Virus record (IMG/VR): IMGVR_UViG_2606217118_000001
Origin: a virus
Taxonomy: Duplodnaviria; Heunggongvirae; Uroviricota; Caudoviricetes
Length of the DNA: 44,417 bases
Direction: 5' to 3' (one strand)
Under the pieces are notes generated by a model. The model had not been told where the DNA came from. It was given only the letters and a program-made list of their open reading frames with translations, and searched no databases. The number at the start of each line of letters is the position of its first letter. The first letter of the stretch is position 1. The position numbers and the translations under genes were made by a program. Below are positions 1 through 43,779 of the stretch, in pieces.

Positions 1-276
1 TTACCGACTGCGGCCTGAGTTTTTTAAGTGACGTAAAATCGTGTTGAGGCCAACGCCCATAATGCGGGCAGTTGCCCGGCATCCAACGCCATTCATGGCC
101 ATATCAATGATTTTCTGGTGCGTACCGGGTTGAGAAGCGGTGTAAGTGAACTGCAGTTGCCATGTTTTACGGCAGTGAGAGCAGAGATAGCGCTGATGTC
201 CGGCGGTGCTTTTGCCGTTACGCACCACCCCGTCAGTAGCTGAACAGGAGGGACAGCTGATAGAAACAGAAGCCAC
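1..276 (-). CDS. insA: IS1 InsA transposition regulator
   Basis: 91 aa [40 protein letters not shown]... recognised as IS1 InsA. Confidence 0.9.
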
Positions 277-331
277 TGGAGCACCTCAAAAACACCATCA
301 TACACTAAATCAGTAAGTTGGCAGCATCACC
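1..331 (-). mobile_element. IS1 insertion sequence, partial (left terminal inverted repeat plus insA; element continues beyond window start)
   Basis: Reverse complement of 300-331 reads GGTGATGCTGCCAACTTACTGAT, the IS1 terminal inverted repeat; insA starts 55 nt inside the end as in IS1. Confidence 0.9.
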
Positions 332-1662: not shown

Positions 1663-4600
1663 TATGCAAGCCTCACAATATAGTTAAATGCGATGTTTTT
1701 GACGGTGTTTTCCGCGTTACCAGCAGCGTTAACGGTGATGGTGTGTCCATGTGAGCCAATCGCAACCGAGTGCGTATGAGCACCAATACCGACAGTATGT
1801 GCGTGTGCACCTGCGCTTGCAGCAGTGCCGGACAGTGAGTGGGTATGAGCACCATCTGATGATGTCTTCCCTGCATTACGAGTCTGGCCACTACCGCTTG
1901 TTGTGCTCATAATCCCCGCGCTTGGATTTGAAATCGCGGTATAACCATTAGGGAAAATGCTCGTGTTCGTGCCACCAAATGCACCGGAACTCTTGTGTTG
2001 GTGCGCACCGGCACTATTTGCGGTCCCGCTAATACTATGGGTATGCGCCCCGGTGTTATTCGTGGATTTGGTTCCGTAATCAAACGACGATGTGGTTTTC
2101 GTCCCCAAATCCGTACTGGATGCGCTGGCGCTGTGGGTATGCGATTTAATGCCGTCCTGTTCCTGAGACAATACGGCCCGACCACTGGCAGGTTTGCCCT
2201 TAATCGTCCAGCCACGCATATCAGGGATCACGCCTGACGGATAAGCCGCTGCAAGTTTCGGGTAGGCAGATTTGTCAAAAGCCTGCCCCTGCATCAGGGC
2301 ATAGCCAGACGGAACGGTATCTGATGGCCACGGGATTGGTGCGCCGACTGGGTAGCTTTCTGGTGGAAGATTTTTCGAGGTATAAACTTCTGCCCAGTCT
2401 TCCTCAAAACCATAGCCATCTCTTGAGGAACGGTAGAACAGACCTCCATTTCTGTAATGCGCCTTCATCTGCAGGGTCCGGCAACTTCCGACTCCGGTAT
2501 AGAAGTTAACCAGAATATAGCTGTCGCCAGAGCGGGTGACATTGTAAGCGCCTGATTCGGCATTCCAGGGAACGCCACCATCCGCATCGGCATATGTATC
2601 CGTTGCCCTTCTGGCAAAAGCAGCCACATGCGCGGCGGTTAAAGTAATATCTTTGGAACCATCAAACTCAACACCAGAAACCAGTCTTGGCGTTTGCAGC
2701 TTTGTTGCTGTTAATGCATTACCGTTCAGACTTGCGGACAGTTTGGTTCCAATAATCAGTTCGCCGGTTGCGTTATCAATAGCAAACGGTCTTAATGTAT
2801 TCCAGCCACCATAAACATCACCTTGATTGGTAAGCAGCAGGTAAGTTTTAGCGCCATCATTACGCCATAATGCACCATACTCCCCACCTATCATTCGAAT
2901 CTGATTACCACCACGCGCTACAATTTCGTCTGTGGCAAAAAGTTTTTTGCACGACAAGTTATCGTTAACGATTAACGAATGAGACTCATAAAAACCACGC
3001 CCACTCTTAAAATCAAGGATAACGTCCGCCGCGATACATTCAGTCGCCGGATTTGTTGCCCCAAACTTATAGGTCGTATCATTAACAACGAGATCAGCAC
3101 CAGGTGCGGATATTGACAGGCCATCTTCGATAAACGCAAAAACAGGGAAAGCAGCGCCATCAACATAGAACACAGAGCGCAAATCATCGCCCTTATTACT
3201 CATCATTATTGAGTGGATGGCTCGTTCATTGTTTTGATATTGCCAGAACATTCCATAAGCATAACGCCCCCTGTCAGTCCAGCCACCAGGCATAACAAAT
3301 CCGTTAAACTCGCAGTTATTCATCGGATCGCCTGCGGTTCGCGTTGCCGTGGTGATAATGACCCTTGATGCCAGTTCGCTTACTGAGCCAGCAGAACGCA
3401 TAACAACAACAGGGTAATATTTTCCAGATGTTGCACCTGCAGGAGCGTTAACCCGCACATAACGCATACCACGCTTATCAGCAAAGTCTGTTTTACTGAC
3501 CGCGTTAATGTTGTTCAGGAAGCGTCCCTTATCGGGTATATCAGCGCCGTTCTGGTCTTTCTGCAGACGTTTCTCTGCATTGTCATAGGCTGATTTTACT
3601 GCCTTTGGCGTTGCCGCCAGCGTTTCAGACGTACTGTTGGTCGCACTGCTGAGCTGTACTACCCCCTTTTTCGTCGTGCTCGCATCCTCAAGCGCCACGG
3701 CGGATGCAATATCCTCTGCCCGTTTTGCCGCTGTCTCGGCGCGCGTTGCCGCGGATTCCGCCGTACTTTTGCTCTGTGCTGCCGCTGCCGCACTGCCAGC
3801 TGCCTCTGTCGCCTTCGTGGATGCTGTCGTGGCGCTGCCCTTCGCTGCTGACGCCTGTCTGGTCGCCTCATCTTTTGAAGCAGACGCCGATGATGCCGAT
3901 GACGCCGCCGAACTGGCTGACGATGCGGCAGCCGTTTTTGAGGATTCTGCGCTGGTTTCCGACGCTTTCGCGTTCGTTTCGGATGTCTTCGCTGCGGAAG
4001 CAGACCTCGCTGCTGCGCTGGCCTGTTCAGTGGCTTCGCCAGCCTTCGTTGTGGCTGTTGAAGCAGACGATGCGGCACTTTCTGCCGACTTTCCGGCAGC
4101 GGTGGCACTGGCTGAGGCCTGCCCGGCACTGGCTGAGGCCTGCCCGGCACTTGTTGACGCGGCGCTGGCAGACGACGCAGCCGCTGTTTTTGAGCCTGCC
4201 GCAGCTGAGGCACTCTGTCCCGCTGCCGTTTCAGAAGACTTAGCGTTCGTCTCGGACGTTTTGGCCGCCTTCGCAGAATTTGCTGTCGCCGTTGCCGAGG
4301 AAGCTGCGCTGCTGGCGCTCGAGGCTGCGCTCGTTTCTGATGATTTTGCCGCCTCTTTTGAAGCTGACGCATCCCGGGCTGAGGTGGCAGCTTCTGACGC
4401 TTTCGTGGTCGCGGTGGATGCAGAAGTGGCTGCTGATTGTTGTGACGCTGCCGCATTCGTTTCTGACGTTTTCGCCGCAGCGGCACTGGTGGCCGCCGCG
4501 CTTTTTGAGGACTCTGCAGCGGCAGCACTTTTTTCCGCTTCAGTGGCCTTTGTTGATGCCGTTCCTGCGCTGGAAGACGCTGACTGAGCCGACGACGCGG

Positions 4601-5148: not shown

Positions 5149-5748
5149 TCAGAATTTATAACCGACACCAACGATGAAACTGTTGGTACGCCAGTCACCG
5201 CTGCCGGAGCCTTCATAAGCAATATCAATGGCCACGGATTCGGTCGGGTTAAACTGCACGCCAGCTCCCCACGCCAGAGACGTGTTGCTGTGGCGACCGT
5301 CATCACTTCCGGTCAGCACGTCGTGCGTTTTCCCCTTGTTGTCAGTTACGCGGAGATAATCCCCGGAGAAAGTCGACACACGGCTGTAAGCCACACCCGC
5401 CATCGCATACGCGCTGAACCATTCATTCACGCGCACAGACGGCCCCGCCATCACGCTGAACCAGCGGTTACGAACGGAATCTTCATGCCAGCGGGTATCG
5501 CTGTAACGGGTAAGCTGGCGATTCTTGTCTCCTGCATAGCTGAATGACGTCACCATCCCCAGTGTGTCCGTAAACTCATAACGGTATTTCACGTTAATCC
5601 CGTTCAGATCATCGCTGCCGGGAACGTTCGTCGAGGCATGAAGATACCCCGCGCTCAGCGTGGACTGATGTTCAGATGCCCATGCAGGCGCACCGGATAC
5701 GGCCAGACAAATGGCTGCGGACAAAATTGCTGCACAAACTTTACGCAT
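5149..5748 (-). CDS. lom: Outer membrane protein Lom (Ail/Lom/PagC family)
   Basis: 199 aa with signal peptide [24 protein letters not shown] and beta-barrel-like C-terminus ending GVGYKF. Confidence 0.9.
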
Positions 5749-10664: not shown

Positions 10665-11363
10665 TTACTGCGAAAGTTTGTTAATGGAAAGGAAGCCGCC
10701 AAAGTTGCCGACGTTATTGCGAAACTTACAGCCACTCAGGCATTTGCTGCATTTATCCTTCGTGATATCGGACGTTGGCTGGTCATATTCATCCGCGACC
10801 GCCGGACCGTGATAACCGCACTCATCGCCGCGATAGGTCCAGGTGCAGGTGTTGGCCAGCATGATACGTCCCGGAAAAACAGCGCCATCCGTTTCCGTCG
10901 GCGTGGACAGTACAAAGGAGGCACTGACCGCGCTCAGTTCGCTGCACTGCTCGATGCGCCAGCGGCTGATCACCTCCTGCTCCGGATCGGCGTCGCTGTT
11001 TCCGTTGACGAAGTTCACCGCATCCAGAAAACGGGCGTAAACCTTACGCCGGACCACCGTTCCGCCGACCAGACTCTGCATATCTTCCGCCATCCCGGTG
11101 ACCATACCGTACAGGTTAGAAACCGTCAGCGTGGGGCGTGTACTGGTGCCTTTGCCATTCAGTTCAAAACCGCTCCCCTGAATGGGATACGGCTGATACT
11201 GTCGCCCCTGCCAGGTGACCGGCTCACCTTTTTCGTTCTGCTCATTACAGAAAAAATAACGTTCTCCACCGACCTCTGTCAGGTCGATTTCCCAGAGCAC
11301 CACGCTGGCCGACTGCTCCGCACGGGTGCATTCATTCAGTGTTTCCTGCCGGATATCCTGCAT
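10665..11363 (-). CDS. L: Tail tip protein L
   Basis: 232 aa, MQDIRQETLNECTRAEQSASVVLWEIDLTEVGGERYFFCNEQ... Confidence 0.95.
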   Translation of the reverse strand: MQDIRQETLNECTRAEQSASVVLWEIDLTEVGGERYFFCNEQNEKGEPVTWQGRQYQPYPIQGSGFELNGKGTSTRPTLTVSNLYGMVTGMAEDMQSLVGGTVVRRKVYARFLDAVNFVNGNSDADPEQEVISRWRIEQCSELSAVSASFVLSTPTETDGAVFPGRIMLANTCTWTYRGDECGYHGPAVADEYDQPTSDITKDKCSKCLSGCKFRNNVGNFGGFLSINKLSQ

Positions 11364-11692
11364 CAGTTCACCACCTGTTCAAACTCTGCGCTGAACTCAA
11401 CACGCAGCATACTGACCCGCGACGACCATTTTGCGCAGGTCACCTTTATCTGCCGCCACTCATAAGGCGGCGTCCACAGAAAGGCTTTCCAGCCCCCGTG
11501 CTCTTCCAGAAACGACTCCAGTACCGTGGCCTCCTCACGGGGGACAGAAAGCGTCACGCTGTACGTTTTCAGGTTGGCATTCAGCCCGGCAGGCGCTCGC
11601 TGGGAATAGCCATCACCAAAGCGCACCTTTCTTACAGAAGGGGCCGAAGCCACATCCATACCGGGTTTCACTTTCCAGCGGAAGGTTTTCAT
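11363..11692 (-). CDS. M: Tail tip protein M
   Basis: 109 aa, MKTFRWKVKPGMDVASAPSVRKVRFGDGYSQRAPAGLNANLKTYS... Confidence 0.95.
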   Translation of the reverse strand: MKTFRWKVKPGMDVASAPSVRKVRFGDGYSQRAPAGLNANLKTYSVTLSVPREEATVLESFLEEHGGWKAFLWTPPYEWRQIKVTCAKWSSRVSMLRVEFSAEFEQVVN

Positions 11693-14250
11693 CGTCCACC
11701 TCCGGAGAACAGGCCACCATCACGCATCTGTGTCTGAATTTCATCACGGGCACCCTTGCGGGCCATGTCATACACTGCCTTCATCATCTGTGGACCTGGC
11801 AGACCATTCGTACCGTCGTTCTGAATCACCACGTGATTGTTCTGATTAAAATTAATGCCTTCAGCCCGCCGCATCTGCGCCGGACTTCCGGCACCGCCCA
11901 CATAACCACCTTCCGCATAGCCCCGCATCAGGCGGTACAGGTTGCCGACACCAATCCGGCTGGTTGCCTCCTTCGTGAAGACAAATTCACCACGGTGAAC
12001 AATCCCCGCTGGCTCATATTTGCCGCCGGTTCCCGTAAATCCCCCGGTCGCAAAATGGAATTTCGCCGCAGCTGCCTGAATGGCTGTACCGCCTGACGCG
12101 GATGCGCCGCCACCAACAGCCCCGCCAATGGCGCTGCCGATACTCCCGACAATCCCCACCATTGCCTGCTTAAGCAGAATTTCTGTCATCATGGACAGCA
12201 CGGAACGGGTGAAGCTGCGCCAGTTCTGCTCACTGCCGGTCAGCATCGCCGCCATATTCTGTGCAATACCATCAAAGGTCTGCGTGGCAGCACTTTTAAC
12301 CTGCGACATACTGTCCGTGGCGCTCTCTTCCCACTCACTCCAGCCGGACTTCAGGCCTGCCATCCAGCTCCCGCGAAGCTGGTCTTCAGCCGCCCAGGTC
12401 TTTTTCTGCTCTGACATGACGTTATTCAGCGCCAGCGGATTATCGCCCTACTGTTCCTTCAGGCGCTGTTCCGTGGCTTCCCGTTCTGCCTGCCGGTCAG
12501 TCAGCCCCCGGCTTTTCGCATCAATGGCGGCCCGTTTTGCCCGTTGCTGCTGTGCGAATTTATCCGCCTGCTGCGCCAGCGCGTTCAGGCGCTCCTGATA
12601 CGTAACCTTGTCGCCAAGTGCAGCCAGCTGGCGTTTGTACTCCAGCGTCTCATCTTTATGCGCCAGCAGGGATTTCTCCTGTGCAGACAGCTGGCGACGT
12701 TGCGCCGCCTCCTCCAGTACCGCGAACTGACTCTCCGCCTTCCACAAATCCCGGCGCTGCTGGCTGATTTTCTCATTTGCTCCGGCATGCCTCTCCAGCG
12801 TCCGGAGTTCAGCCTGAAGCGTCAGCAGGGCAGCATGAGCACTGTCTTCCTGACGATCGCCCGCAGACACCTTCACGCCGGACTGTTTCGGCTTTTTCAG
12901 CGTCGCTTCATAGTCCTTTTTCGCCGCCGCCATCAGCGTGTTGTAATCTGCCTGCAGAATTTTCCCGTCCTTCAGTGCCTTGTTCAGTTCTTCCTGACGG
13001 GCGGTATATTTCTCCAGCGGCGTCTGCAGCCGTTCGTAAGCCTTCTGCGCCTCTTCGGTATATTTCAGCCGTGACGCTTCAGTATCGCTCTGCTGCTGCG
13101 CATTTGTGTCCTGTTGACTCTGCTGTTCAGCCTTCTTTCTCGCGGCTTCAAGCGCAAGACGGGCCTTTTCACGATCATCCCAGTAACGCGCCCGCGCTTC
13201 ATCGTTAACAAAATAATCATCCTTGCGCAGACTCCAGATGTCGTCCGCTTTCTTAAACGCAGCCTCTGCCTTAATCAGCATCTCCTGCGCGGTATCAGGA
13301 CGACCAATATCCAGCACCGCATCCCACATGGATTTGAATGCCCGCGCTGTCCTGTCTGCCCAGGTCTCCAGCGTACCCATGTTCTCTTTCAGGCGGCGGG
13401 TCTGGTCATCAAACCCTTTCGTCGCGGCCTCGTTCGCCGCCTGCAATGCCCCGGCTTCATCGCCGGAACGCTGCAACTGAGCAACATACGCAATCTGCTC
13501 CGCCGTCACGTTATGGAACTGGCGTGCCATCGCCGTCAACCCCGACGTCGGGTCTGTGGTCAGCTTCCCGAAGGCTTCAGCGACCTTGTCCACCTCCACA
13601 CCGGATGCAGAGGAGAAACGCGCCACACTCTGGCTGATGGACGCAATCTGAGCCTCACCGCTTACTCCCGCCTTAACCAGTGCGCTGAGTGACTCGCTGG
13701 TCTGGTTAAACGTCAGCCCTGCCACCTGCCCGGCTCTGGACAGGACCAGCATGCGATCTGCCGTCAGACCCGACTGATTGCCGGAAAGGACCAGCGTTTT
13801 GTTGAAATCGGACAGGGTTGAGTTGCCCTGATACCAGGCATACGCCAGCGCACCGGTCGCCACCGCCAGCGAGGTGGCCCCCACCATCGGCAGGTTGATC
13901 GCACCGGCAAGCCCCCTGAACATGGGGATCATCCCGCCGAAGGAGTCCTTAACCTGCCCCCCCTGTTGCAGCAGGATCAGCCACGGACTTTGCCCGCCTG
14001 CAAGCTGCGTGGCCACGTCGGTGAACTGTGCAGGCAGCATACGCATGGCGGCTTTATACTGTCCGACGGAAATCCCCGCTTTCTGTGCAGCCAGCGCCTG
14101 CCGGTTCATTGACTGTTCAACGACTGCCGCTGTTTTTTTCGCATCACTTTCCGTACCGGAAAAATGACGCCTGACTCTGGCCATCTGCTCGTCAAATCTG
14201 GCCGCATCCAGACTTAAATCAACGACCAGATCGCCTACCGGTTCAGCCAT
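11689..14250 (-). pseudogene. H: Tail tape measure gene H interrupted by an in-frame TAG (amber) codon at 12448-12450
   Basis: ORFs 12448..14250 (600 aa, MAEPVGDLVVDLSLDAARF...) and 11689..12417 (242 aa, ...MRDGGLFSGGGR) are in the same frame separated only by TAG; context ...RLKEQ*GDNPLALNNVMSEQKK. Confidence 0.9.
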
Positions 14251-14677
14251 ACCGGACTCCTCCTGCGATCCCTTCTGATACTGTCATCAGCATTACGTCA
14301 TCCTCCGTCATGTCCGCCACATCCGGGGAAGCGGGGATAACTTCATTCCCGTCCGGGCCAAAACGAACGCCTCCGGCAAGCCCTGCCGCTTTCTGCATCA
14401 GCACATCATCTTCAGGCTCTTCGTCAGCCTCGCGCCGGTTCAGCAGACTGAAATCCAGCGGATGCATCTCCGGATCGCTGAAAAACAGGCTGAGCACGGT
14501 GTACGTCAGCCCGGAAAAGTGCATATCCAGCAGAACATCATGAAAATAATGGGTACTGTAAAAGCGGTGCCAGTCGGCATACTCCGTGGATGACATCCCG
14601 GCAAGCATGGCGCGCCAGTCGGGTCGCCCCATCTCACGCGCCAGTTTCAGGGCAAAACTCAGCTCACCGTCGAACAC
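14243..14677 (-). CDS. T: Tail assembly chaperone T portion, expressed as G-T fusion by -1 frameshift
   Basis: 144 aa ORF in -1 frame overlapping 3' end of G; begins at slippery site. Confidence 0.9.
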   Translation of the reverse strand: MFDGELSFALKLAREMGRPDWRAMLAGMSSTEYADWHRFYSTHYFHDVLLDMHFSGLTYTVLSLFFSDPEMHPLDFSLLNRREADEEPEDDVLMQKAAGLAGGVRFGPDGNEVIPASPDVADMTEDDVMLMTVSEGIAGGVRYG

Positions 14678-15081
14678 TTTCCCGCAGAAACAGGCACTGC
14701 AGGCCCGGCGTCCTCTGCCTGTTCAGGAGCATCATTCACCACAAACTCATACATACCGGACAGCCGGTACACCACGTTTTCAGCATGAGAAATTGCCTCT
14801 GTGGGCCAGGTGGTAAGCACTTCCTGCTCAATCTGTTTAACGGCTTCATTCATGGAAGGCAGCTTTGTCTTCTGCGGATGGTTATGCCACAGGGACATCG
14901 CTACCACAAAAGCACCGGTTCTGATGGCGTCTTCCACAGTAAACTTCCGGTTGCTGTCTGACTCCGCCTGTTCTGCCTGCCGTTTCATCAGGTCGAGATG
15001 CTCAATACGCTGCAGGGCTGACAGTTCAGAAAGCGTGACGGTCACACCGTTATGTTCAAATGATTCGGTTTTCAGGAACAT
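14659..15081 (-). CDS. G: Tail assembly chaperone G
   Basis: 140 aa, MFLKTESFEHNGVTVTLSELSALQRIEHLDLMKRQAEQ... Confidence 0.95.
   Translation of the reverse strand: MFLKTESFEHNGVTVTLSELSALQRIEHLDLMKRQAEQAESDSNRKFTVEDAIRTGAFVVAMSLWHNHPQKTKLPSMNEAVKQIEQEVLTTWPTEAISHAENVVYRLSGMYEFVVNDAPEQAEDAGPAVPVSAGKCSTVS
14677..14683 (-). promoter_or_regulatory. Programmed -1 ribosomal frameshift slippery heptamer GGGAAAG (G to G-T)
   Basis: Minus-strand GGGAAAG located a few codons before G stop, exactly where the T frame opens. Confidence 0.85.
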
Positions 15082-20371: not shown

Positions 20372-24052
<3,681 letters not shown>

Positions 24053-24078
<26 letters not shown>

Positions 24079-24598
24079 TCAGCAACCCCGGTATCAGTTC
24101 ATCCAGCGCGGCTGCTTTGTTCATGGCTTTGATGATATCCCGTTTCAGGAAATCAACATGTCGGTTTTCCAGTTCCGGAAAACGCCGCTGCACCGACAGG
24201 GGGATCCCGTCGAGAATACTGGCAATTTCACCTGCGATCCGCGACAGCACGAAAGTACAGAATGCGGTTTCCACCACTTCAGCGGAGTCTCTGGCATTTT
24301 TCAGCTCCTGTGCGTCGGCCTGCGCACGCGTAAGTCGATGGCGTTCGTACTCAATAGTCCCTGGCTGGAGATCTGTCTCGCTGGCCTGCCGCAGTTCTTC
24401 AACTTCCCGGCGCAGCTTTTCGTTCTCAATTTCAGCATCCCTTTCGGCATACCATTTTATGACGGCGGCAGAGTCATAAAGCACCTCATTACCCTTGCCA
24501 CCGCCTCGCAGAACGGGCATTCCCTGTTCCTGCCAGTTCTGAATGGTACGGATACTCGCACCGAAAATGTCAGCCAGCTGCTTTTTGTTGACTTCCAT
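24053..24598 (-). CDS. nu1: Terminase small subunit Nu1
   Basis: 181 aa, MEVNKKQLADIFGASIRTIQNWQEQGMPVLRGGGKGNEVLYDS... Confidence 0.95.
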
Positions 24599-24599
24599 T

Positions 24600-24830
24600 G
24601 TTCATTCCACGGCCAAAAACAGAGAAAGGAAACGACAGAGGCCCAAAAGCTCGTTTTCAGCACCTGTCGTTTCCTTTCTTTTCAGGGGGTATTTTAAATA
24701 AAAACATTAAGTTACGACGAAGAAGAACGGAAACGCCTTAAACCGGAAAATTTTCATAAATAGCGAAAACCCGCGAGGTCGCCGCCCCGTAACCTGTCGG
24801 ATCACCGGAAAGGACCCGTAAAGTGATAAT
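24600..24830 (-). other. cos: cos site (cosB, cosN, cosQ); cosN 12-nt cohesive end at 24775-24786
   Basis: Reverse complement of 24775-24786 is GGGCGGCGACCT; flanking sequence reads as lambda left end (Nu1 side) and right end (...CGTAACCTGTCGGATCACCGGAAAGG). Confidence 0.9.
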
Positions 24831-24986
24831 GATTATCATCTACATATCACAACGTGCGTGGAGGCCATCAAACCACGTCAAATAATCAATTATGACGCAG
24901 GTATCGTATTAATTGATCTGCATCAACTTAACGTAAAAACAACTTCAGACAATACAAATCAGCGACACTGAATACGGGGCAACCTC

Positions 24987-25220
24987 ATGTCAACGAAGAA
25001 CAGAACCCGCAGAACAACAACCCGCAACATCCGCTTTCCTAACCAAATGATTGAACAAATTAACATCGCTCTTGAGCAAAAAGGGTCCGGGAATTTCTCA
25101 GCCTGGGTCATTGAAGCCTGCCGCCGGAGACTGTGCTCAGAAAAAAGAGTTTCTTCTGAAGCAAACAAAGAAAAGAGTGACATTACTGAATTGCTCAGAA
25201 AACAGGTCAGACCAGATTGA
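24987..25220 (+). CDS. Small conserved prophage protein (YlcI/DUF3950-like)
   Basis: 77 aa, MSTKNRTRRTTTRNIRFPNQMIEQINIALEQKGSGNFSAWVIEACRRRL...; opposite strand to late operon. Confidence 0.6.
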   Translation: MSTKNRTRRTTTRNIRFPNQMIEQINIALEQKGSGNFSAWVIEACRRRLCSEKRVSSEANKEKSDITELLRKQVRPD

Positions 25221-25277
25221 AGCAATTTAGATAATCGTGCAGACTACGCCCCCTCATATCACATGGAAGGTTTATCT

Positions 25278-25688
25278 ATGGATCAGGTAGTCATTTTTAA
25301 ACAAATATTTGATAAAGTTCGAAACGATTTAAACTATCAATGGTTTTATTCTGAGCTAAAACGTCACAATGTCTCACATTACATTTACTATTTAGCCACA
25401 GAGAATGTTCATATTGTATTAAAAAATGATAATACAGTGTTATTAAAGGGCCTAAAAAACATTGTGTCTGTCAAATTTTCAAAGGATAGGCATCTTATAG
25501 AAACGACCTCTAATAAGCTGAAATCCAGAGAGATCACATTTCAGGAATACAGAAGAAACCTTGCTAAAGCAGGAGTTTTTCGGTGGGTTACAAATATCCA
25601 CGAACAAAAAAGATATTACTATACCTTTGATAATTCATTACTCTTTACTGAAAACATACAGAGCACATCACAAATGTTTCCACACTAA
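25278..25688 (+). CDS. Conserved prophage protein of unknown function (YbcV-like)
   Basis: 136 aa from ATG at 25278 preceded by GGAAGG; [38 protein letters not shown]... Confidence 0.6.
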
Positions 25689-25988
25689 ACCATAACGTCC
25701 GGTTTCTTCCACCATCGCACCGGAAAAGCGACTATGAGGGTAACCCTGCGTCTGTCAGCACAGTAAAATCCGGTGTGCATCGTTTTTGATTATTCCCGCA
25801 CACTCACGCAGAAGGAATTCCCCGTCGGGCTACGGTCATGGTTAATGCGGGAATACGGCGACGATACAGCGCATGATGTGTCAGGCTTGAATACCTTTAT
25901 CCGTTAAAAGGGATATCAGTTAAGTTATCCCGTGCAGGGTATAAGCCATTATCAAGCCCCCCCGTAGATAGGCTTTGTAATGACATCT

Positions 25989-26513
25989 TCAATTAATCAG
26001 CAGTTCAGGCTGTGTCACCTGCAAGATGTATTCATGCTCGACAGCCAGGACACGCTTCTCTTTCTTCCGTTCGTTCATTAACCGACTGCCGATCGTACCT
26101 TTCAGCTTTGAGCGTGTTTCTTTGATGGCGTAGCGGTGCTGCATTTCTTCGCCAATTGCCATGCGGCGGCTCAGTTGCTCTGCCATCCAGTTGAATGCTG
26201 CGATATAGCTCTCCTTGATTGCCGCAGCAGCTTTCCCGGTGAACCCCATCACAACCATGATCCAGCCATCTTTCGTCAGGCTGTACATCGGGCGAACCTT
26301 GCCCTGCTCATCGATATAATCAGCCGACGCAAAATTGCGTTGGCTAAACTCACGCGAGCAATCAGCCTTAACCTGCTCGATTTTCCTGAGAACATCACCG
26401 TGTCGCTTGCCGAAGTACTTGGCAATTTTTCTGGATGTGGTAACGACCTCTCCGTTTTTGGCTTGCACCATTTCTCGGAAGTCGAAGGCTGGAATAACTG
26501 AATGATTATTCAT
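25989..26513 (-). CDS. rha: Phage regulatory protein, Rha family
   Basis: Start at MNNHSVIPAFDFREMVQAKNGEVVTTSRKIAKYFGKRHGDVLRKIEQ (Rha-type motif); RBS AAGG upstream; longer ORF extension rejected. Confidence 0.7.
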   Translation of the reverse strand: MNNHSVIPAFDFREMVQAKNGEVVTTSRKIAKYFGKRHGDVLRKIEQVKADCSREFSQRNFASADYIDEQGKVRPMYSLTKDGWIMVVMGFTGKAAAAIKESYIAAFNWMAEQLSRRMAIGEEMQHRYAIKETRSKLKGTIGSRLMNERKKEKRVLAVEHEYILQVTQPELLIN

Positions 26514-26855
26514 AGCGTCTTTACCTTTTAGAAAGTGAGCCTGTCTCACAGAAAAGCCGCCCGAGAGAGGTCGCCACCTATAACGGCATTTCTCAGGCTC
26601 GCTTACTGAAAGGCTCTCGTTAATATGCGCGTGAGATGCGCTGTGAAATTCAGATATAAAAAGCCCCGCGAATGCGAGGCTAAATCCTGGTATTTGTAAT
26701 GAACTGGCTCTTATCTCAACGCAGCCCCTTACTGCGCGCCAGATGCTCAATATCAAGCATCAGCAATGAGATGTTTAATCTGGATTTACTCCAGAAGTGA
26801 TCACCACCCTGTCTACAGAGCCAGATGTGAAGGATGATGAGTAAAATTATCGCTA

Positions 26856-27323
26856 TCATCGAAGGCATTGCGTCCTAATGTATTCCTGAAGCGTTCTCAG
26901 TGCTGTTTGGTCGCGGATAATTCCGTCCCGGATATCGAGAACGTTTCGTCCAGCAACTGGAGAGAGTTCGACGGTGGCATCATTGCCCATGCCGGAGGCG
27001 CTGGAGGTTTCGGCTGAGGATGGCACAGGGCATTTTCCTTTGACGAGCACCCTGCCACCATTATCAAGCTTCCGCAGAAGAGCATCATTTTCAGCTTTCG
27101 CATCAGCTAACTCCTTCGTGTATTTTGCATCGAGCGCAGCAACATCACGCTGACGCATCTGCATGTCAGTAATTGCCGCGTTCGCCAGCTTCAGTTCTCT
27201 GACATTTTTGTCGCGCTGGGCTTTGTAGGTAATGGCGTTATCACGGTAATGATTAACAGCCCATGACAGGCAGACGATGATGCAGATAACCAGAGCGGAG
27301 ATAATCGCGGTTACTCTGCTCAT
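26856..27323 (-). CDS. Rz: Inner-membrane spanin Rz (i-spanin)
   Basis: Start [38 protein letters not shown] with GGGGGA SD; ATGA overlap with R stop; C-terminal half diverges from lambda Rz. Confidence 0.9.
26897..27103 (-). CDS. Rz1: Outer-membrane lipoprotein spanin Rz1 (o-spanin), embedded in Rz in +1 frame
   Basis: 68 aa with lipobox LIMVAGCSS and Pro-rich [16 protein letters not shown]. Confidence 0.8.
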
Positions 27324-27817
27324 TGTTTCCCCCACAAACAGACTTCACGCTCAATCTCACGGCGAGTCATCAGTCCTTTCCATTGATTACCGCCAGCGTA
27401 TGTCCAGCGCCGTAGCTGATCACATGCGCCTTTGATATCACCCTGGTTTATTTTGCGAAGAAGCGTCGATGTTCTGAAATTGCCAGCACCCACGTTGTAG
27501 ACGAACGAGTAAAGAGCGCCGCGCGTTGTTTCCGGTATATCGACTTTGATGTACGGGTTAATTTGTCTGGCGACAGTGGCAAGGTCTTTATTCAGGAGGG
27601 CTTTGCACTCTGCTTCGGTATACGTTTTACCGGGAATGATGTCTTTTCCTGTATGCCCGTAACATACAGTCCATACACCAACTATGTCTTTGTAAGGATT
27701 ATGTCTCACACCTTCCAGACCATCGTTACCACTTGGGCCAGTGATTAACACAGATGCTATAGCAATAGCCCCGCCACCAATAGCAGCAGCAACAGCTTTT
27801 CGTAATGATGGAGGCAT
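27320..27817 (-). CDS. R: SAR endolysin (T4-lysozyme-like, phage 21 R / DLP12 RrrD-like)
   Basis: 165 aa; N-terminal Gly/Ala-rich SAR segment [20 protein letters not shown]; E...D...T catalytic spacing; ATGA overlap with S stop. Confidence 0.9.
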
Positions 27818-28032
27818 TATCCACCTCTCGCAGCCTTGCGCTTATCTTCTTTAATCTTGAAATAAAGGTTTGTCAGGTACGTCAGCAGGCCAAATACCAG
27901 GCTACCCAGCACTCCAATTGCCGCCCACTGTGAGGGCGTGACTTTATCGAGCAGCTGTAAAAACCAGTACCCGGCACTACCTGCTGAGGTGCCATAGGCG
28001 ACACCCGTTGTTAACTTATCCATGGATTTCAT
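27817..28032 (-). CDS. S: Class II holin (pinholin, S21/EssD-like) with dual-start motif
   Basis: 71 aa [71 protein letters not shown]; two TMDs; Met1 and Met4. Confidence 0.9.
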
Positions 28033-28155
28033 AACCCCACCTCGCAGACAAAGCGGGTGTAAATTGAGGGAATACTACGAAACGTAACAGACTCGGAGTC
28101 AGTGAATAACTCAGGTATTGGGTTATCAGCTAATATCGAGACTCAAAAAATGGAA

Positions 28156-28190
28156 AAACCCGCTCGACGGCGGGTTTAAGCTGTGTGACG
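28156..28190 (-). terminator. Rho-independent terminator upstream of S (candidate tR' of short late leader transcript)
   Basis: Minus strand aaacccgc-cgtcga-gcgggttt perfect 8-bp stem followed by ttccatttttt. Confidence 0.6.
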
Positions 28191-28603
28191 AAGTAACCAC
28201 TCTTAACAGCATAACCAATTTTTTACGTACGTAAACCACTAAATGATATTTGCGAGAATGCTACCGAGTATTGAAAACACCACTACAAATACATAAGCAA
28301 ATCTCAACAAATAACCAACAAATAATTTCCAGCGTTATTTTTAGCTGGTTTAAATTGAATCTTCAAATTATAGAGCACTTATAAATAACAGCCATTAATA
28401 TAAATTGGCTAATAGATTTATTTTTATTCAGCCAAGAGCCATGAATAGGATTCGATAGAAAAAGTTCAGATAAAAATAGAGATCTACTTCACAAATCAAA
28501 TGAGAAACCAAAACTTACATCTTGAAATAATCACATTGATTAGATGAATATTTATCGCGCAGTGACATCATTTTTTAATAATAGTTCAAAAAAAGGGCTC
28601 ACG

Positions 28604-29686
28604 ATGAAAAAATTAACAGTGGCAATTTCTGCTGTAGCTGCATCAGTACTGATGGCGATGTCTGCTCAGGCAGCTGAAATTTATAATAAAGACAGTAACA
28701 AGCTGGATCTGTACGGGAAAGTTAATGCTAAGCACTACTTCTCCTCTAATGATGCAGATGATGGTGATACTACTTATGCCCGTCTTGGCTTCAAAGGTGA
28801 AACCCAAATCAACGATCAACTGACTGGTTTCGGTCAGTGGGAATATGAATTCAAAGGCAACCGCGCTGAATCTCAAGGTTCCTCCAAAGATAAAACCCGT
28901 CTTGCCTTCGCTGGCCTGAAATTCGGTGACTACGGCTCCATCGATTATGGCCGTAACTACGGTGTAGCATACGATATTGGTGCATGGACCGACGTTCTGC
29001 CAGAATTCGGTGGCGATACCTGGACCCAAACAGATGTATTCATGACTGGTCGCACCACAGGTGTTGCAACTTATCGTAACAATGACTTCTTTGGTCTGGT
29101 TGATGGTCTGAACTTTGCTGCTCAGTATCAGGGTAAAAATGACCGCACTGACGTAACTGAAGCTAATGGTGATGGTTTCGGTTTCTCCACTACTTATGAG
29201 TATGAAGGATTCGGTGTAGGTGCAACCTATGCTAAATCTGACCGCACTAATAATCAGGTTATCTACGGTAACAACAGCCTGAATGCATCTGGTCAAAATG
29301 CTGAAGTATGGGCAGCTGGTCTGAAATATGATGCGAACAACATCTATCTGGCTACCACCTATTCTGAAACCCAGAACATGACTGTTTTTGGTAATAACCA
29401 TATTGCCAACAAAGCACAAAACTTCGAAGTAGTTGCACAATATCAGTTCGACTTCGGTCTGCGTCCGTCCGTTGCTTACCTGCAATCTAAAGGAAAAGAC
29501 TTGGGTGCGTGGGGTGATCAGGACCTGGTTGAATATATTGATGTAGGTGCAACCTATTACTTCAACAAAAATATGTCCACTTTTGTTGATTACAAAATCA
29601 ACCTGATTGATAAGAGCGATTTCACGAAAGCATCTGGCGTTGCTACCGATGATATCGTTGCTGTAGGTATGGTTTACCAGTTCTAA
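28604..29686 (+). CDS. Outer membrane porin, OmpC/OmpF/PhoE family (phage-borne Lc/NmpC-like)
   Basis: Signal peptide [39 protein letters not shown]..., C-terminal ...VGMVYQF; AAGGG SD; longer upstream ORF extension rejected. Confidence 0.9.
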
Positions 29687-29711
29687 TTTGATTACTAAAA
29701 GATATGTTGCG

Positions 29712-29730
29712 GGAGGCTTTGCCTCCCCAA
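29712..29730 (+). other. Stem-loop (gggaggc-ttt-gcctccc) in porin 3' region
   Basis: Perfect 7-bp inverted repeat 26 nt after porin stop. Confidence 0.5.
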
Positions 29731-29821
29731 CATATAAGTGGCTCCCTCAAGCCACTTCCTTTAGGAGCACAACCTTGCTTCTAACTATATAAACCTTCTG
29801 TTATATATTACCCTTTATTTT

Positions 29822-29860
29822 TGGGGGCGTCTCAACGCCCCATTTTTAATAATTTTTAGT
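29822..29860 (+). terminator. Rho-independent terminator-like hairpin downstream of porin gene
   Basis: ggggcgtctcaacgcccc stem-loop followed by atttttaataattttt. Confidence 0.55.
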
Positions 29861-29874
29861 AAACAATTGGCATA

Positions 29875-30258
29875 TTAATTAGAGTTATTAACAACGATAT
29901 CCATCTCTAACCGGATATCTAATGCCATTAACATCCCTTCAATTATACCCTCAGCCTTCTGTAACCTTTTCCCGATATAACCATCAGAGCAGCAATGCTT
30001 ACCTGCCAGTGACATGAATGTCATACCGACTACATAATAATCTACTAATAAATCGTGCAAATCGCTGTTGTTCTTTTTCAGACGGGCCATGCACCCGCAA
30101 ATGATCATCGCGTCATCGTCACAACATTGCGGGCGAGATTTTACTTTTGAAGGAATTAATCCCTTAAAACCGGCGGCAATGGACGACCAGGTCACATCTT
30201 CATGATTATTAGCCGCCCACGCTCCCCAACGCTCAAGAACCATCTGAATATCACGCAT
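29875..30258 (-). CDS. Q: Late-gene antiterminator Q (DLP12 QuuD-like)
   Basis: Start at ATG giving [24 protein letters not shown]... (127 aa); track ORF begins at an upstream TTG. Confidence 0.85.
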
Positions 30259-30343
30259 CAACTTACTCCACAAAAATCAGACCAGAACGCTAATTACAAG
30301 CAAAAATCAACAAAACAGTATTAGTTGATTGTTATCTCTGACT

Positions 30344-30484
30344 TCATACTCCTGCTCCTGTCAGGGTTTTGGCGTAATTCTTCAGTATTCGGTAATCGGT
30401 CAAAACAGAACCGGGGAAACGATATAAGCGCAGACGCCCCCAGCGGTGGCGAAGACGCTCTGCCATATAAGACTCAAACATCAT
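30344..30484 (-). CDS. Small protein YlcG-like (46 aa)
   Basis: [46 protein letters not shown]; start ATGATG overlaps rusA stop. Confidence 0.55.
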
Positions 30485-30843
30485 TCATCTCCCAGTTCGG
30501 TGATGGTCAGTTCCAGCCTCCCACCTTTGGTAACAGGCATCTTCACAACGCGGTAATCAACGACCTGAGCATCATCCAGCCAGAAACCTGCTTTGGTGAG
30601 TGCGTCAAAAGCGGCCTTTTGCAGATTATCCAGGTCACGGCGACGGCGATCCGGCATGTGGCACTCAATGCGGATTTTCACAGGCATAGCCAGGCCGATA
30701 TCCAGCATTGCGTTTTTAATGATTCGGGCGACGTTATCGCGGTATGCCTGCCCCTCTGCGCTGATGTGCGTGCGCCCGCGATTATGGCGGTAATAGCGAT
30801 TATTGCTCGGAGGCCAGGGTAATGTGATGCTGTAGGTATTCAC
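30481..30843 (-). CDS. rusA: Holliday junction resolvase RusA
   Basis: 120 aa ...[40 protein letters not shown]...; GTG start. Confidence 0.9.
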
Positions 30844-30968
30844 GCCTTAATAACCCCCTCTTTCAGCCAGATAACCTGTGTTCTCGCCATACCTTCCAGC
30901 GCGCATTCTTTTGCATATGCAGCATCGACTTGCTTGGCATGCCCTTTACCGGCAATCTTCTGTATGCG
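30840..30968 (-). pseudogene. C-terminal remnant of a YbcO-like gene, closed upstream by two in-frame TAG codons
   Basis: Frame reads [42 protein letters not shown] with stop overlapping rusA start (GTGA); no start codon; identity from memory. Confidence 0.35.
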
Positions 30969-31049
30969 CTAAACCTAGATAGAATCCACTCTGTGCACAT
31001 TGAAGCCCGCTCTATGCTTCCTTTCAGGTATTGAAGGGATTGAGATGGG

Positions 31050-31397
31050 CTAAGCATTATTGGCCTCCTGCATCAGGAGAAAGACAATCATGGCGGCGCG
31101 GAGGGGTCTGGTATCAAATATTGGGCTTACGCCTTTTGCATCCACACACCATTCAGTTAACTGGTCTAAGATAGAAATCCTGTATTTCTCAATAATCGGC
31201 CATGAAGCGCTCGGATCATTGCAGTAGTCAGGCAAATGATTTAATGGCTCAAAAGTTGTATCAGCATTTCCGTAATACCATTTGTTGGTGTTATTCCCTG
31301 ATGTTTCCGGTTTACTTGCCCAAAGGCCTTTAAAAATTATGTCTCCTACCATTCTGTTAATTTCAAAATCACTTAACTGTGAATAATCCATTGTCAT
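31050..31397 (-). CDS. NinX-like phage protein (unknown function)
   Basis: Start [43 protein letters not shown]...; ATGA overlap with ninE stop. Confidence 0.6.
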
Positions 31398-31570
31398 TTC
31401 CTCGCACGATATCTTAGCCACCGGATATCCCACAGGTGAGCTGTGTAATTGAAGGTTTTTACGTCAGATTCTTTTGGGATTGGCTTGCGTTTATTTCTGG
31501 AGCGTTTCGTTGGAAGGTATTTGCAGTTTTCGCAGATGATGTCGGTGAAACTTCGTCGCTGTCGCCTCAT
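31394..31570 (-). CDS. ninE: NinE
   Basis: 58 aa [58 protein letters not shown]; ATGA overlap with upstream methyltransferase stop. Confidence 0.75.
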
Positions 31571-32094
31571 GCCGCCCTCCTGACGCCCTGCCCGATCGCC
31601 ATCAATGCCGCTTTGGATACGGTAGTAAACATCCGCCGAGGACTGATGAACGGTCGCCAAATCAGCAGCATGGAGCCTTTGCTGTTTCCCTTCTTCTCCA
31701 GCCCTGTCGATGGTTCGATAAAATTAATCCGTCCATCAGTGATAATGCGAACTTCGTCGACACTCTCCAGAGCCTTGCTGAACCATCCGACTGACATATC
31801 CTCTGGCACAAGCATAACTACCGTCTGTCGCTGTTGTATGCACTGCTCAGCGGCTTTTTCCACCCACGGCCTGATATTGCTGTACGGTGGGTTATTCCAG
31901 ATTGCACCGTGGCTTATCCACTCAGAATTTAGCGCGTCGTCGGCCTCAGTTAACCAGTGAGCGCACAGAGCATTTTTGTCGCTCGCTGCAGAATCCAGCC
32001 AGAATCCAAACTCAATATCCAGTGCATCAAAAAGCCAAAGCGGCGTTTGCCAGCAGTCCTTGTCGTGTGCTGGCGTATTTGATTTGATAGTCAT
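31567..32094 (-). CDS. Orphan DNA N6-adenine methyltransferase (phage Dam-like, NPPY motif)
   Basis: Start [41 protein letters not shown]...; catalytic NPPYS motif; ATGA overlap with ninB stop. Confidence 0.8.
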
Positions 32095-32531
32095 GCAGCC
32101 CGATCTCCCCATCTCGCTTTCCACTCCAGAGCCAGTCTCGCTTCGTCTGACCACTTAACGCCACGCTCTGTACCGAATGCCTGTATAAGCTCTAATAGCT
32201 CCGCAAATTCGCCTACACGCATCCTGCTGGTTGACTGGCCTATTACCACAAAGCCATTCCCGGCAAGGTTAGGAACAACATCCTGCTGCTTTAATGCTGC
32301 GGTAAACACACACTTCCAGCTTTCTGCATCCAGCCAGCGACCATGCCATTCAACCTGACGAGAGACGTCACCTAAGCAGGCCCATAGCTTCCTGTTTTGG
32401 TCTAAGCTGCGGTTGCGTTCCTGAATGGTTACTACGATTGGTTTGGTTGGGTCTGGAAGGATTTGCTGTACTGCGTGAATAGCGTTTTGCTGATGTGCTG
32501 GAGATCGAATTTCAAAGGTTAGTTTTTTCAT
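32091..32531 (-). CDS. ninB: NinB recombination protein
   Basis: Start MKKLTFEIRSPAHQQNAIHAVQQILPDPTKPIVVTIQERNRSLDQNRKLWA...; 146 aa. Confidence 0.9.
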   Translation of the reverse strand: MKKLTFEIRSPAHQQNAIHAVQQILPDPTKPIVVTIQERNRSLDQNRKLWACLGDVSRQVEWHGRWLDAESWKCVFTAALKQQDVVPNLAGNGFVVIGQSTSRMRVGEFAELLELIQAFGTERGVKWSDEARLALEWKARWGDRAA

Positions 32532-32604
32532 GACTTCCCTCTCCCCCAAATAAAAAGGCCTGCGATTACCAGCAGGCCTGTTATTAGCTCAGTAATGTAG
32601 ATGG

Positions 32605-32895
32605 TCATCTTTTAACTCCATATACCGCCAATACCCGTTTCATCGCGGCACTCTGGCGACACTCCTTAAAAATCAGGTTCGTGCTCATCTTTCCTTCCCG
32701 TTCTTCCCTGGTAGCAAACCGGTAATACACCGTTCGCCAGACCTTACCTTCGATAACCAGAAGACCTGCCCGTGCCATTTTAGCCGCGGCCTGATTTATG
32801 CTGGTTACTGTTGCGCCTGTTAGCGCGGCAACGTCCGGCGCACAGAAGCTATTATGCGTCCCCAGGTAATGAATAATTGCCTCTTTGCCCGTCAT
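32605..32895 (-). CDS. ren: Ren protein
   Basis: 96 aa MTGKEAIIHYLGTHNSFCAPDVAALTGATVTSINQAAAKMARAGLL... Confidence 0.9.
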   Translation of the reverse strand: MTGKEAIIHYLGTHNSFCAPDVAALTGATVTSINQAAAKMARAGLLVIEGKVWRTVYYRFATREEREGKMSTNLIFKECRQSAAMKRVLAVYGVKR

Positions 32896-37296: not shown

Positions 37297-37878
37297 TTAC
37301 TTGTTTTTGCCATGCTTATCCTGAGCGATAAGTTCATCCATAAGGCTGTCTGCCTTCCCGGCAAACCGAATGTAGCACTCATTTCTATAGCGTTCCGGGA
37401 TAACAAAACGGTCGATTTCAGGATATCCAGTAGCAGAAGGTATCCGAATAAGAAGCCCTTTTTCGAGCAATGAGATTGCTTCAGGGCTTCCCTTTTCTGT
37501 CTTTAGCTGGTTATTCGCGGCTACAGCGAATGCCAAATACGCTCTTTCTCCAAGAGTTAACGAATCAAACAAATCTTGCACATATTTTTCTTCTTTAGAT
37601 TTGCACTTCTGAGCAGCGGATACCTCAATTCTTTCAGTCACAGCGTGATAAGCGGAATTAACAACACCGTTAAGCACATAGCTAACGCAGAACAACAGGA
37701 TGTAATACATCCAATAATAAGGAAGGATTTCTGGATTATGCAGGTTTATCCATTCTTTTACGCTTACCGGCATAACAATAATCAATATGATCAGGATGAT
37801 TAGCATATGAATCAACTGTTTAAGTGTCATTCCTTGCAGGAAAAAATGCATTAGTTCCTGCCACCATGAGTTGTTCAT
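37297..37878 (-). CDS. sieB: Superinfection exclusion protein B (SieB-like) membrane protein, antisense to the PL operon
   Basis: 193 aa MNNSWWQELMHFFLQGMTLKQLIHMLIILIILIIVMPVSV... with two hydrophobic segments; convergent with N. Confidence 0.6.
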   Translation of the reverse strand: MNNSWWQELMHFFLQGMTLKQLIHMLIILIILIIVMPVSVKEWINLHNPEILPYYWMYYILLFCVSYVLNGVVNSAYHAVTERIEVSAAQKCKSKEEKYVQDLFDSLTLGERAYLAFAVAANNQLKTEKGSPEAISLLEKGLLIRIPSATGYPEIDRFVIPERYRNECYIRFAGKADSLMDELIAQDKHGKNK

Positions 37879-43764: not shown

Positions 43765-43778
43765 TGGCGGTTTTTTGT
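43754..43778 (+). terminator. Rho-independent terminator after small ORF
   Basis: gccgcc-tgat-ggcgg hairpin followed by TTTTTT. Confidence 0.7.
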
Positions 43779-43779
43779 G

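What the first reader, a model, noticed from the sequence alone, without database searches (positions are those of the whole stretch)
12415..12450. In-frame amber codon splits tape-measure gene H
The lambda-like H reading frame is continuous except for a single TAG at 12448-12450 (context ...RLKEQ*GDNPLALNNVMSEQKK). From memory of lambda H the corresponding codon is Tyr (TAT), so this looks like a single-base nonsense mutation. Without suppression the tape measure would be truncated at about 600 of 853 residues, making this prophage unable to build tails. Every other head and tail gene appears intact, so the lesion is either recent decay or a suppressible amber allele.
Basis: seen in the sequence. 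Interest (0 to 1): 0.55.

Follow-up and report, generated by a model that had tools for sequence, protein, structure and literature searches.

The report
Nonsense mutation in prophage tape-measure gene
A lambda-like prophage in a poultry-associated E. coli lineage carries a real, inherited one-base stop-codon mutation in its tail tape-measure gene; this is ordinary prophage decay that public genome annotation already flags as a pseudogene.

Summary
The lambda H homologue lies on the minus strand (window 14250..11689, 853 codons). It is open except for one in-frame TAG at codon 601 (window 12450..12448).

Lambda, phage 21, PhiR63_1 and a 1-nt-different E. coli allele all read TAT (Tyr) there, so the lesion is one T>G change at window 12448. 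It is not a sequencing error:
- The identical allele is in 5 complete poultry E. coli genomes from different laboratories, and NCBI's PGAP annotation pipeline marks each as "pseudo, internal stop".
- The exact 600-aa product occurs on 175 public contigs.

The prophage sits at the lambda attachment site (ybhC | ybhB-bio) and looks vertically inherited. Every other gene I mapped in the window, including all head and tail genes, is intact.

The truncation removes the Tape_meas_lam_C domain and the C-terminal helix (lambda residues 818-842) that sits in the tail tip, so tail assembly should fail. That step is inferred, not tested.

I found no suppressor: no tRNA in the window, no supF in 5,426 genomes, and wild-type glnV/glnX in carrier strain 64.1.

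Verdict: an ordinary, recent, already-annotated pseudogenising mutation. Low interest.

The parts
11689..14250 (-). Tape-measure gene H of a lambda-like prophage, 853 codons, pseudogenised by one internal stop
   Evidence: Translation. 96.0% nt identity to lambda H over 100% of its length. The identical sequence is annotated 'phage tail tape measure protein, pseudo, internal stop' in 5 RefSeq genomes.
12448..12450 (-). Amber codon TAG at codon 601. The ancestral codon is TAT (Tyr). The mutated base is window 12448 (T>G on the coding strand, A>C on the + strand).
12451..14250 (-). N-terminal 600-aa product expected after termination at UAG. It contains Pfam TMP_2 (residues 54-256).
   Evidence: The exact product is on 175 public contigs and in 294 index blocks.
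11689..12447 (-). Untranslated or orphaned C-terminal 252 codons plus the terminal stop. They hold Tape_meas_lam_C (residues 627-701 of the full protein) and the C-terminal helix equivalent to lambda gpH 818-842. In-frame ATGs lie at Met612 (12417, no Shine-Dalgarno sequence) and Met630 (12363, preceded by GGGAG).
   Evidence: The position of the gpH C-terminal coiled coil in the tail tip is from PMC10721106. Gene callers report 242-aa and 224-aa ORFs here on 330 and 203 contigs.
14243..15081 (-). Intact tail assembly chaperone genes G (14659-15081) and T (14243-14677) immediately upstream of H
   Evidence: annotation of the identical sequence.
11363..11692 (-). Intact tail-tip gene M, overlapping the H stop codon by 4 nt

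Best explanation
This is a spontaneous TAT-to-TAG (Tyr601-to-amber) point mutation in the tape-measure gene H of a lambda-like prophage. The prophage is integrated at the lambda attachment site and is inherited vertically in one E. coli lineage. The mutation marks a sub-lineage; the five complete genomes that carry it are all North American poultry isolates.

Expected mechanism (inferred, not tested): release factor 1 terminates translation at UAG and releases a 600-residue fragment. The fragment keeps the N-terminal TMP_2 region. It lacks the Tape_meas_lam_C domain, the hydrophobic glycine-rich segment, and the C-terminal helix that sits as a trimeric coiled coil on the gpI plug inside the tail tip. 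Without that end, H should not join the J-I-L-K tip complex to form the initiator on which gpV polymerises. Induction should therefore give DNA-filled heads and cell lysis but essentially no tailed, infectious particles, apart from rare natural readthrough of UAG.

The prophage is thus a recently grounded (defective) prophage at an early stage of decay.
For: Shown by tool results:
- One in-frame TAG at codon 601, with TAT in lambda, phage 21, PhiR63_1 and strain 104.
- Exactly 5 of the 61 E. coli records with >=99% identity are 100% identical to the window. They come from separate projects in Canada and the USA, all poultry, and all are annotated 'internal stop'.
- The exact 600-aa product is on 175 contigs. 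The split-off C-terminal ORFs are on 330 and 203 contigs. The intact allele is on >=999 contigs.
- The prophage lies between ybhC and ybhB-bioA.
- A 5.9-kb chromosomal flank is identical in 7 of the 8 relatives compared, both carriers and non-carriers; the eighth (GPEC673) differs by 2 SNPs.
- The window and four of the five complete-genome carriers differ from each other by 0-3 SNPs over 16.6 kb. Carriers are 2 SNPs from the intact allele of strain 2009C-3133, one of them the amber itself. The fifth carrier, GPEC1258, has 51 extra differences spread over locus 23666-32812.
- Pfam places TMP_2 in the N-terminal fragment and Tape_meas_lam_C in the lost part.
- The lost part aligns with residues 612-853 of the lambda gpH chain deposited with the solved lambda tail structures (8iyk_H, E = 4e-138).
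- Cryo-EM places gpH residues 818-842 in the tail-tip lumen on the gpI trimer (PMC10721106).
- All other genes I mapped in the window are intact.
- No suppressor found.
- Carrier genomes contain only one H-homologous place, so there is no obvious in-genome donor for repair or for tails.

From established knowledge rather than tools: lambda H amber (sus) mutants make heads but no tails, and H acts after J, I, L and K in initiator assembly (Katsura and Kuhl 1975; Katsura and Hendrix 1984).
Against: - No functional test was possible.
- An amber is not an absolute null. A tail needs few gpH copies, so basal UAG readthrough could give a small titre.
- Only two classical suppressors were excluded, and only in relatives. 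The genome that holds the window was not available.
- The allele has persisted in hundreds of assemblies. That fits neutral hitch-hiking in a successful clone, but it does not rule out selection.
Confidence: 0.9

Rival explanations
1. Suppressible (conditional) amber allele: the host carries an amber-suppressor tRNA, so full-length H is made and the prophage is functional.
For: TAG is the classical suppressible codon. supE alleles do exist in the database: 155 records, and the eight top-ranked ones listed are K-12-type or other laboratory strains such as C600, DH5alpha and J53.
Against: - No tRNA gene in the window.
- tRNA-Tyr(CUA) is absent from all 5,426 complete genomes, which include the 5 carriers.
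- In carrier strain 64.1 both tRNA-Gln(CUG) genes are wild type.
- Not tested: amber-suppressor alleles of serU, leuX, trpT and tyrU.
Confidence: 0.03
2. Sequencing or assembly error: the true base gives TAT.
For: A single-base difference is the commonest kind of assembly error.
Against: - The identical base is in five complete genomes from different projects and countries.
- The exact truncated product is on 175 contigs and in 294 index blocks, including GenBank records under several unrelated accession series.
- The site is not in a homopolymer, a GATC motif or a CCWGG motif.
Confidence: 0.01
3. Split but functional gene: translation restarts at Met612 or Met630. Either the two fragments together replace H, or the 224-242-aa C-terminal fragment alone acts as a short ruler giving short tails.
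For: - In-frame ATGs lie 11 and 29 codons after the stop.
- The second is preceded by GGGAG, 4 nt upstream.
- Gene callers call these ORFs.
- The C-terminal fragment keeps the tip-binding end.
Against: - Met612 has no Shine-Dalgarno sequence.
- Both ATGs are ordinary internal Met codons that are also present in lambda.
- I know of no precedent for a two-piece lambda tape measure.
- The allele is one step from an intact ancestor, with no compensating change.
Confidence: 0.03
4. Programmed stop-codon readthrough or recoding signal in H.
For: None beyond the presence of an in-frame stop.
Against: The stop is not conserved. All close and distant relatives I examined read TAT, and the intact allele is several-fold more common.
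Confidence: 0.005

Closest known systems
Bacteriophage lambda gpH (tape measure protein, 853 aa; PDB 8iyk chain H) and the classical lambda H amber (sus) mutants
   Same: - Same gene, length and position (G-T-H-M-L-K-I-J).
- 96.0% nt identity, with 33 amino-acid differences including the stop.
- An amber in H is the classical tail-defective genotype (from established knowledge).
   Different: This is a natural allele in a wild prophage of poultry E. coli, not a laboratory mutant, and the carrier checked has no supE or supF. The C-terminal residues 780-823 diverge from lambda.
RefSeq pseudogene H5C78_RS07650 in E. coli strain 64.1 (NZ_CP059917.1), with equivalents in strains E7, APEC17, GPEC673 and GPEC1258
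   Same: 100% identical H sequence including the TAG. Annotated 'phage tail tape measure protein, pseudo, internal stop'.
   Different: The window's prophage copy differs from strain 64.1 in three ways:
- 5 SNPs
- a 21-nt in-frame duplication in the tail-fibre gene
- an IS200 insertion next to xis that none of the 5,426 complete genomes has at that site
Defective or cryptic lambdoid prophages of E. coli (for example DLP12, Rac and Qin in K-12, and the defective Sp prophages of O157 Sakai)
   Same: A resident lambdoid prophage inactivated by point mutations and IS insertions while still being inherited with the chromosome (established knowledge: Asadulghani et al. 2009; Bobay et al. 2014).
   Different: This is a much earlier stage of decay. 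Here the whole ~47-kb genome is present, with one nonsense mutation plus, in this isolate, one IS200.

Membership tests
Lambda-type tape measure protein gene (gpH) | Full-length sequence homology to lambda H | tested here: met
   96.0% nt identity over 2562/2562 bases. The C-terminal 242 aa match 8iyk_H residues 612-853 with E = 4e-138.
Lambda-type tape measure protein gene (gpH) | Pfam TMP_2 plus Tape_meas_lam_C domains | tested here: met
   TMP_2 scores 235 bits in the N-terminal fragment. Tape_meas_lam_C scores 79 bits in the C-terminal fragment.
Lambda-type tape measure protein gene (gpH) | Position between the G/T chaperone genes and M-L-K-I-J | tested here: met
   Gene order mapped in the window and annotated in identical loci.
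Lambda-type tape measure protein gene (gpH) | Uninterrupted reading frame encoding one polypeptide | tested here: not met
   One internal TAG at codon 601.
Pseudogene by nonsense mutation | In-frame stop where intact orthologues have a sense codon, with the ancestral state inferable | tested here: met
   TAG here versus TAT in four relatives. It is the only difference from the strain 104 allele.
Pseudogene by nonsense mutation | Real in the genome, not an artefact | tested here: met
   Five independent complete genomes, and 175 contigs with the exact truncated product.
Pseudogene by nonsense mutation | Loss of function (no tails or no infectious phage) | not testable with these tools
   Inferred from loss of residues 601-853, including the tip-resident helix 818-842.
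Suppressible amber (sus-type) conditional allele | Host carries an amber-suppressor tRNA | tested here: not met
   No tRNA in the window. No supF in 5,426 genomes. glnV and glnX are wild type in carrier 64.1. Other suppressors and the source genome itself were not examined.
Programmed stop-codon readthrough | Stop codon conserved among relatives | tested here: not met
   Relatives read TAT. The intact allele is on >=999 contigs against 175 for the truncated product.

The most novel reading that the evidence does not exclude
The amber is not neutral decay but is kept by selection as a 'grounding' lesion in a successful poultry E. coli clone. On this reading the prophage stays as a carrier of its cargo genes (Lom, a phage-borne porin, SieB, an LprI-type lysozyme inhibitor). 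It can no longer spread and kill sister cells, and rare UAG readthrough leaves a trickle of infectious particles. The allele's presence in hundreds of assemblies, and the different inactivating hits in sister lineages, do not exclude this. Hitch-hiking explains both equally well.
Probability: 0.03. Interest if true: 0.35.

Novelty: already known. Interest (0 to 1): 0.07.

Why it matters
It matters little beyond annotation.
- It marks this prophage as probably unable to make tailed particles, which is relevant to anyone predicting inducible phages or transduction in these avian E. coli strains.
- It gives a clean single-base lineage marker for one sub-clone.
- With the independent IS and island insertions in sister copies, it is a tidy small example of how one vertically inherited lambdoid prophage is inactivated repeatedly by different lesions.

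Tried and rejected
- **Sequencing error:** rejected, because the allele recurs in many independent assemblies.
- **supF:** rejected. A search with tRNA-Tyr carrying a CTA anticodon found no exact match in 5,426 genomes; every record was one mismatch away, which is the wild type.
- **supE:** 155 records have it, and the eight top-ranked ones listed are K-12-type or other laboratory strains. I fetched the glnX-glnV operon of carrier 64.1, and both genes read CTG.
- **Phage-borne suppressor tRNA:** none in the window.
- **Programmed readthrough:** rejected because the stop is not conserved.
- **Laboratory lambda amber stock:** rejected. The gene is only 96% identical to lambda and sits in wild poultry isolates.
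- **Source strain:** not identified. No complete genome has the IS200 at the window's right end.
- **Island insertions in sister prophages:** a literature check on whether such insertions inside prophage head genes are described was inconclusive.
- **Not tried:** suppressor alleles of serU, leuX, trpT and tyrU; MLST or whole-genome phylogeny of carriers.

Full report
**1. Observation**

The gene is on the minus strand. Translating window 14250..11689 gives 853 codons plus the terminal stop, with one internal stop at codon 601. That stop is TAG at window 12450..12448, in the context RLKEQ*GDNPLALNNVMSEQKK. Mechanical ORF listing splits the gene into a 600-aa ORF (12448..14250) and a 242-aa ORF starting at Met612 (11689..12417).

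**2. Identity of the gene and of the lesion**

The 2,562-bp frame is 96.0% identical to lambda H over its whole length and 98% identical to the closest isolated phage, PhiR63_1. Pfam finds TMP_2 in the N-terminal piece and Tape_meas_lam_C in the C-terminal piece.

Lambda, phage 21, PhiR63_1 and E. coli strain 104 all read TAT (Tyr) at codon 601. The flanking codons 596-606 are identical in all of them. Strain 104's H differs from the window's at only this base. The lesion is therefore a single T>G transversion at window 12448.

**3. It is real and inherited**

Among 5,426 complete E. coli genomes, 61 records carry H at >=99% identity, and exactly five are identical to the window:
- 64.1 (turkey, Canada)
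- E7 (broiler, USA)
- APEC17 (chicken, Quebec)
- GPEC673 and GPEC1258 (chicken, Georgia, USA)

RefSeq annotates H in each of these as a pseudogene with an internal stop.

Counts in the wider protein collection agree:

| Product | Public contigs |
|---|---|
| Exact 600-aa truncated product | 175 (294 index blocks) |
| Orphan C-terminal ORF, 242 aa | 330 |
| Orphan C-terminal ORF, 224 aa | 203 |
| Intact 853-aa allele of the same backbone | >=999 |

A sequencing artefact is excluded.

**4. Context**

Window 1..43776 matches the strain 64.1 prophage, apart from 5 SNPs and a 21-nt in-frame tandem duplication in the tail-fibre gene. That prophage lies between ybhC and ybhB-bioA, the lambda attachment site.

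Several results point to vertical inheritance and a recent mutation:
- A 5.9-kb chromosomal flank is identical in 7 of the 8 relatives compared, with and without the amber; GPEC673 differs by 2 SNPs.
- The window and four of the five complete-genome carriers differ by 0-3 SNPs over 16.6 kb of tail genes.
- Carriers are 2 SNPs from the intact-allele strain 2009C-3133, and one of those two is the amber.
- GPEC1258 has 51 extra differences spread over locus 23666-32812, from gene K to the start of tfa.

So the prophage is inherited with the chromosome in one lineage, and the amber marks a recent sub-lineage.

All other genes I mapped in the window are uninterrupted. These include nu1, A, W, B, C, D, E, FI, FII, Z, U, V, G, T, M, L, K, I, J, lom, stf and tfa, plus the lysis, replication and immunity genes.

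**5. Expected consequence (inferred)**

Termination at UAG leaves residues 1-600. The lost 253 residues include Tape_meas_lam_C and the segment equivalent to lambda gpH 818-842. Cryo-EM places that segment as a three-helix coiled coil in the tail-tip lumen, resting on the gpI trimer (PMC10721106; PDB match).

From established lambda genetics (Katsura and Kuhl 1975; Katsura and Hendrix 1984), H joins the J-I-L-K complex to form the initiator for gpV polymerisation, and H amber mutants make heads but no tails. The prophage should therefore lyse its host on induction but release tailless heads.

Carrier genomes have only one H-homologous place. There is no obvious resident donor of tails or of a repair template.

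**6. Rivals**

- **Suppression.** There is no tRNA in the window. tRNA-Tyr(CUA) is absent from all 5,426 genomes. supE exists in 155 records, the top-listed of which are laboratory-type strains, and glnV and glnX of carrier 64.1 are wild type. Other suppressor loci and the source genome itself were not examined.
- **Restart or split gene.** Met612 has no Shine-Dalgarno sequence. Met630 has GGGAG 4 nt upstream. Both are ordinary internal Met codons also present in lambda. Nothing indicates function.
- **Programmed readthrough.** Excluded by the lack of conservation of the stop.
- **Low-level natural UAG readthrough.** This could leave a small residual titre. It modifies the main explanation rather than competing with it.

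**7. Wider picture**

Sister copies of this prophage are broken in other ways:

| Strain | H allele | Additional lesion |
|---|---|---|
| 2009C-3133 | intact | IS3 in ren |
| 104 | intact | ~11-kb island (integrase, primase, capsid) inside capsid gene E |
| APEC 102026 | intact | ~11-kb island inside portal gene B, plus a frameshifted J |
| GPEC1035 | intact | ~11-kb island inside portal gene B |
| APEC17 | amber | ISCro1 after the Rha gene |
| GPEC1258 | amber | IS3 just upstream of nu1 |
| the window | amber | IS200 between the ea8.5-like ORF and xis |

This is the familiar pattern of repeated, independent inactivation of a resident prophage.

**8. Verdict**

The feature is an ordinary nonsense pseudogene, already flagged in public annotation. 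Novelty: already known. Interest: low.

Noticed in passing
window 43777-44417: An IS200-family element is inserted in the 39-bp spacer between the ea8.5-like ORF and xis. It has a Y1_Tnp transposase (130 bits) and the hairpin AAAACCCCCAGCTAGGCTGGGGGTT at its left end. Homology to the strain 64.1 prophage stops at window 43776. None of the 5,426 complete genomes has this insertion (best coverage 81%). From established knowledge of IS200, it could be polar on pL-driven xis/int expression, which would be a second lesion in this isolate. xis and int themselves are not in the window.
   Followed up: partly
window 1-331: The window begins inside an IS1 copy; its terminal inverted repeat is at 309-331. 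This IS1 sits downstream of tfa in all related prophage copies I examined. It is followed there by an AraC-family regulator gene and transposase remnants before ybhB. With IS sequence at both ends, the window looks like a draft-assembly contig bounded by repeats.
   Followed up: partly
window 4131-4151: A 21-nt perfect tandem duplication (AGTGCCGGGCAGGCCTCAGCC x2, adding 7 aa in frame) in the side tail-fibre gene stf, relative to strain 64.1. The gene is 1,140 aa here and 1,133 aa in 64.1.
   Followed up: yes
window 28604-29686 (+): A complete 360-aa OmpC-type porin gene (Porin_1, 511 bits) lies between the late antiterminator Q and the holin, on the opposite strand. From memory this resembles the lc/nmpC cargo genes of PA-2 and DLP12. 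Other cargo genes are a Lom/Ail gene (5149-5748), an LprI-family lysozyme-inhibitor gene (42662-43360) and sieB (37297-37878).
   Followed up: no
L008 4526-15833 (strain 104); L010 2234-13116 (APEC 102026); L011 2306-13116 (GPEC1035): In relatives with the intact H allele, a ~11-kb satellite-like island is inserted inside the prophage's own head genes. The island encodes an integrase, a primase, SSB, a major capsid protein, a head decoration protein and sometimes a small terminase. It lies in capsid gene E in strain 104 and in portal gene B in the other two, with different integrases, and the tail genes are left intact. Two papers on phage satellites that I searched did not describe such target sites.
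   Followed up: partly
L005 5808-8423 (APEC17); L007 8142-9370 (GPEC1258); L009 253-1466 (2009C-3133); L010 24935-28433 (APEC 102026): Further independent lesions in sister copies of the same prophage: ISCro1 after the Rha gene, IS3 just upstream of nu1 (the cos region), IS3 inside ren, and a frameshifted J.
   Followed up: no
L007 23666-32812 (GPEC1258): This amber carrier differs from the other carriers at 51 positions spread from gene K to the start of tfa, and its K and I proteins have different accessions. This suggests recombination with another lambdoid tail module after the amber arose.
   Followed up: partly
L014 1-2803 (GCA_964045205.1, CAXJSZ010000003.1): In one assembly a 1.3-Mb contig starts exactly with the 600-aa H fragment and runs directly into a murB-like gene. 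This is probably an assembly join or a rearrangement at the amber site region.
   Followed up: no
window ~30844-30933 (equivalent to L003 16100-16189): A short remnant of a DUF1364 gene lacking its N-terminus lies upstream of rusA in the nin region. It is annotated as a pseudogene in all related copies, so it predates the H amber.
   Followed up: no
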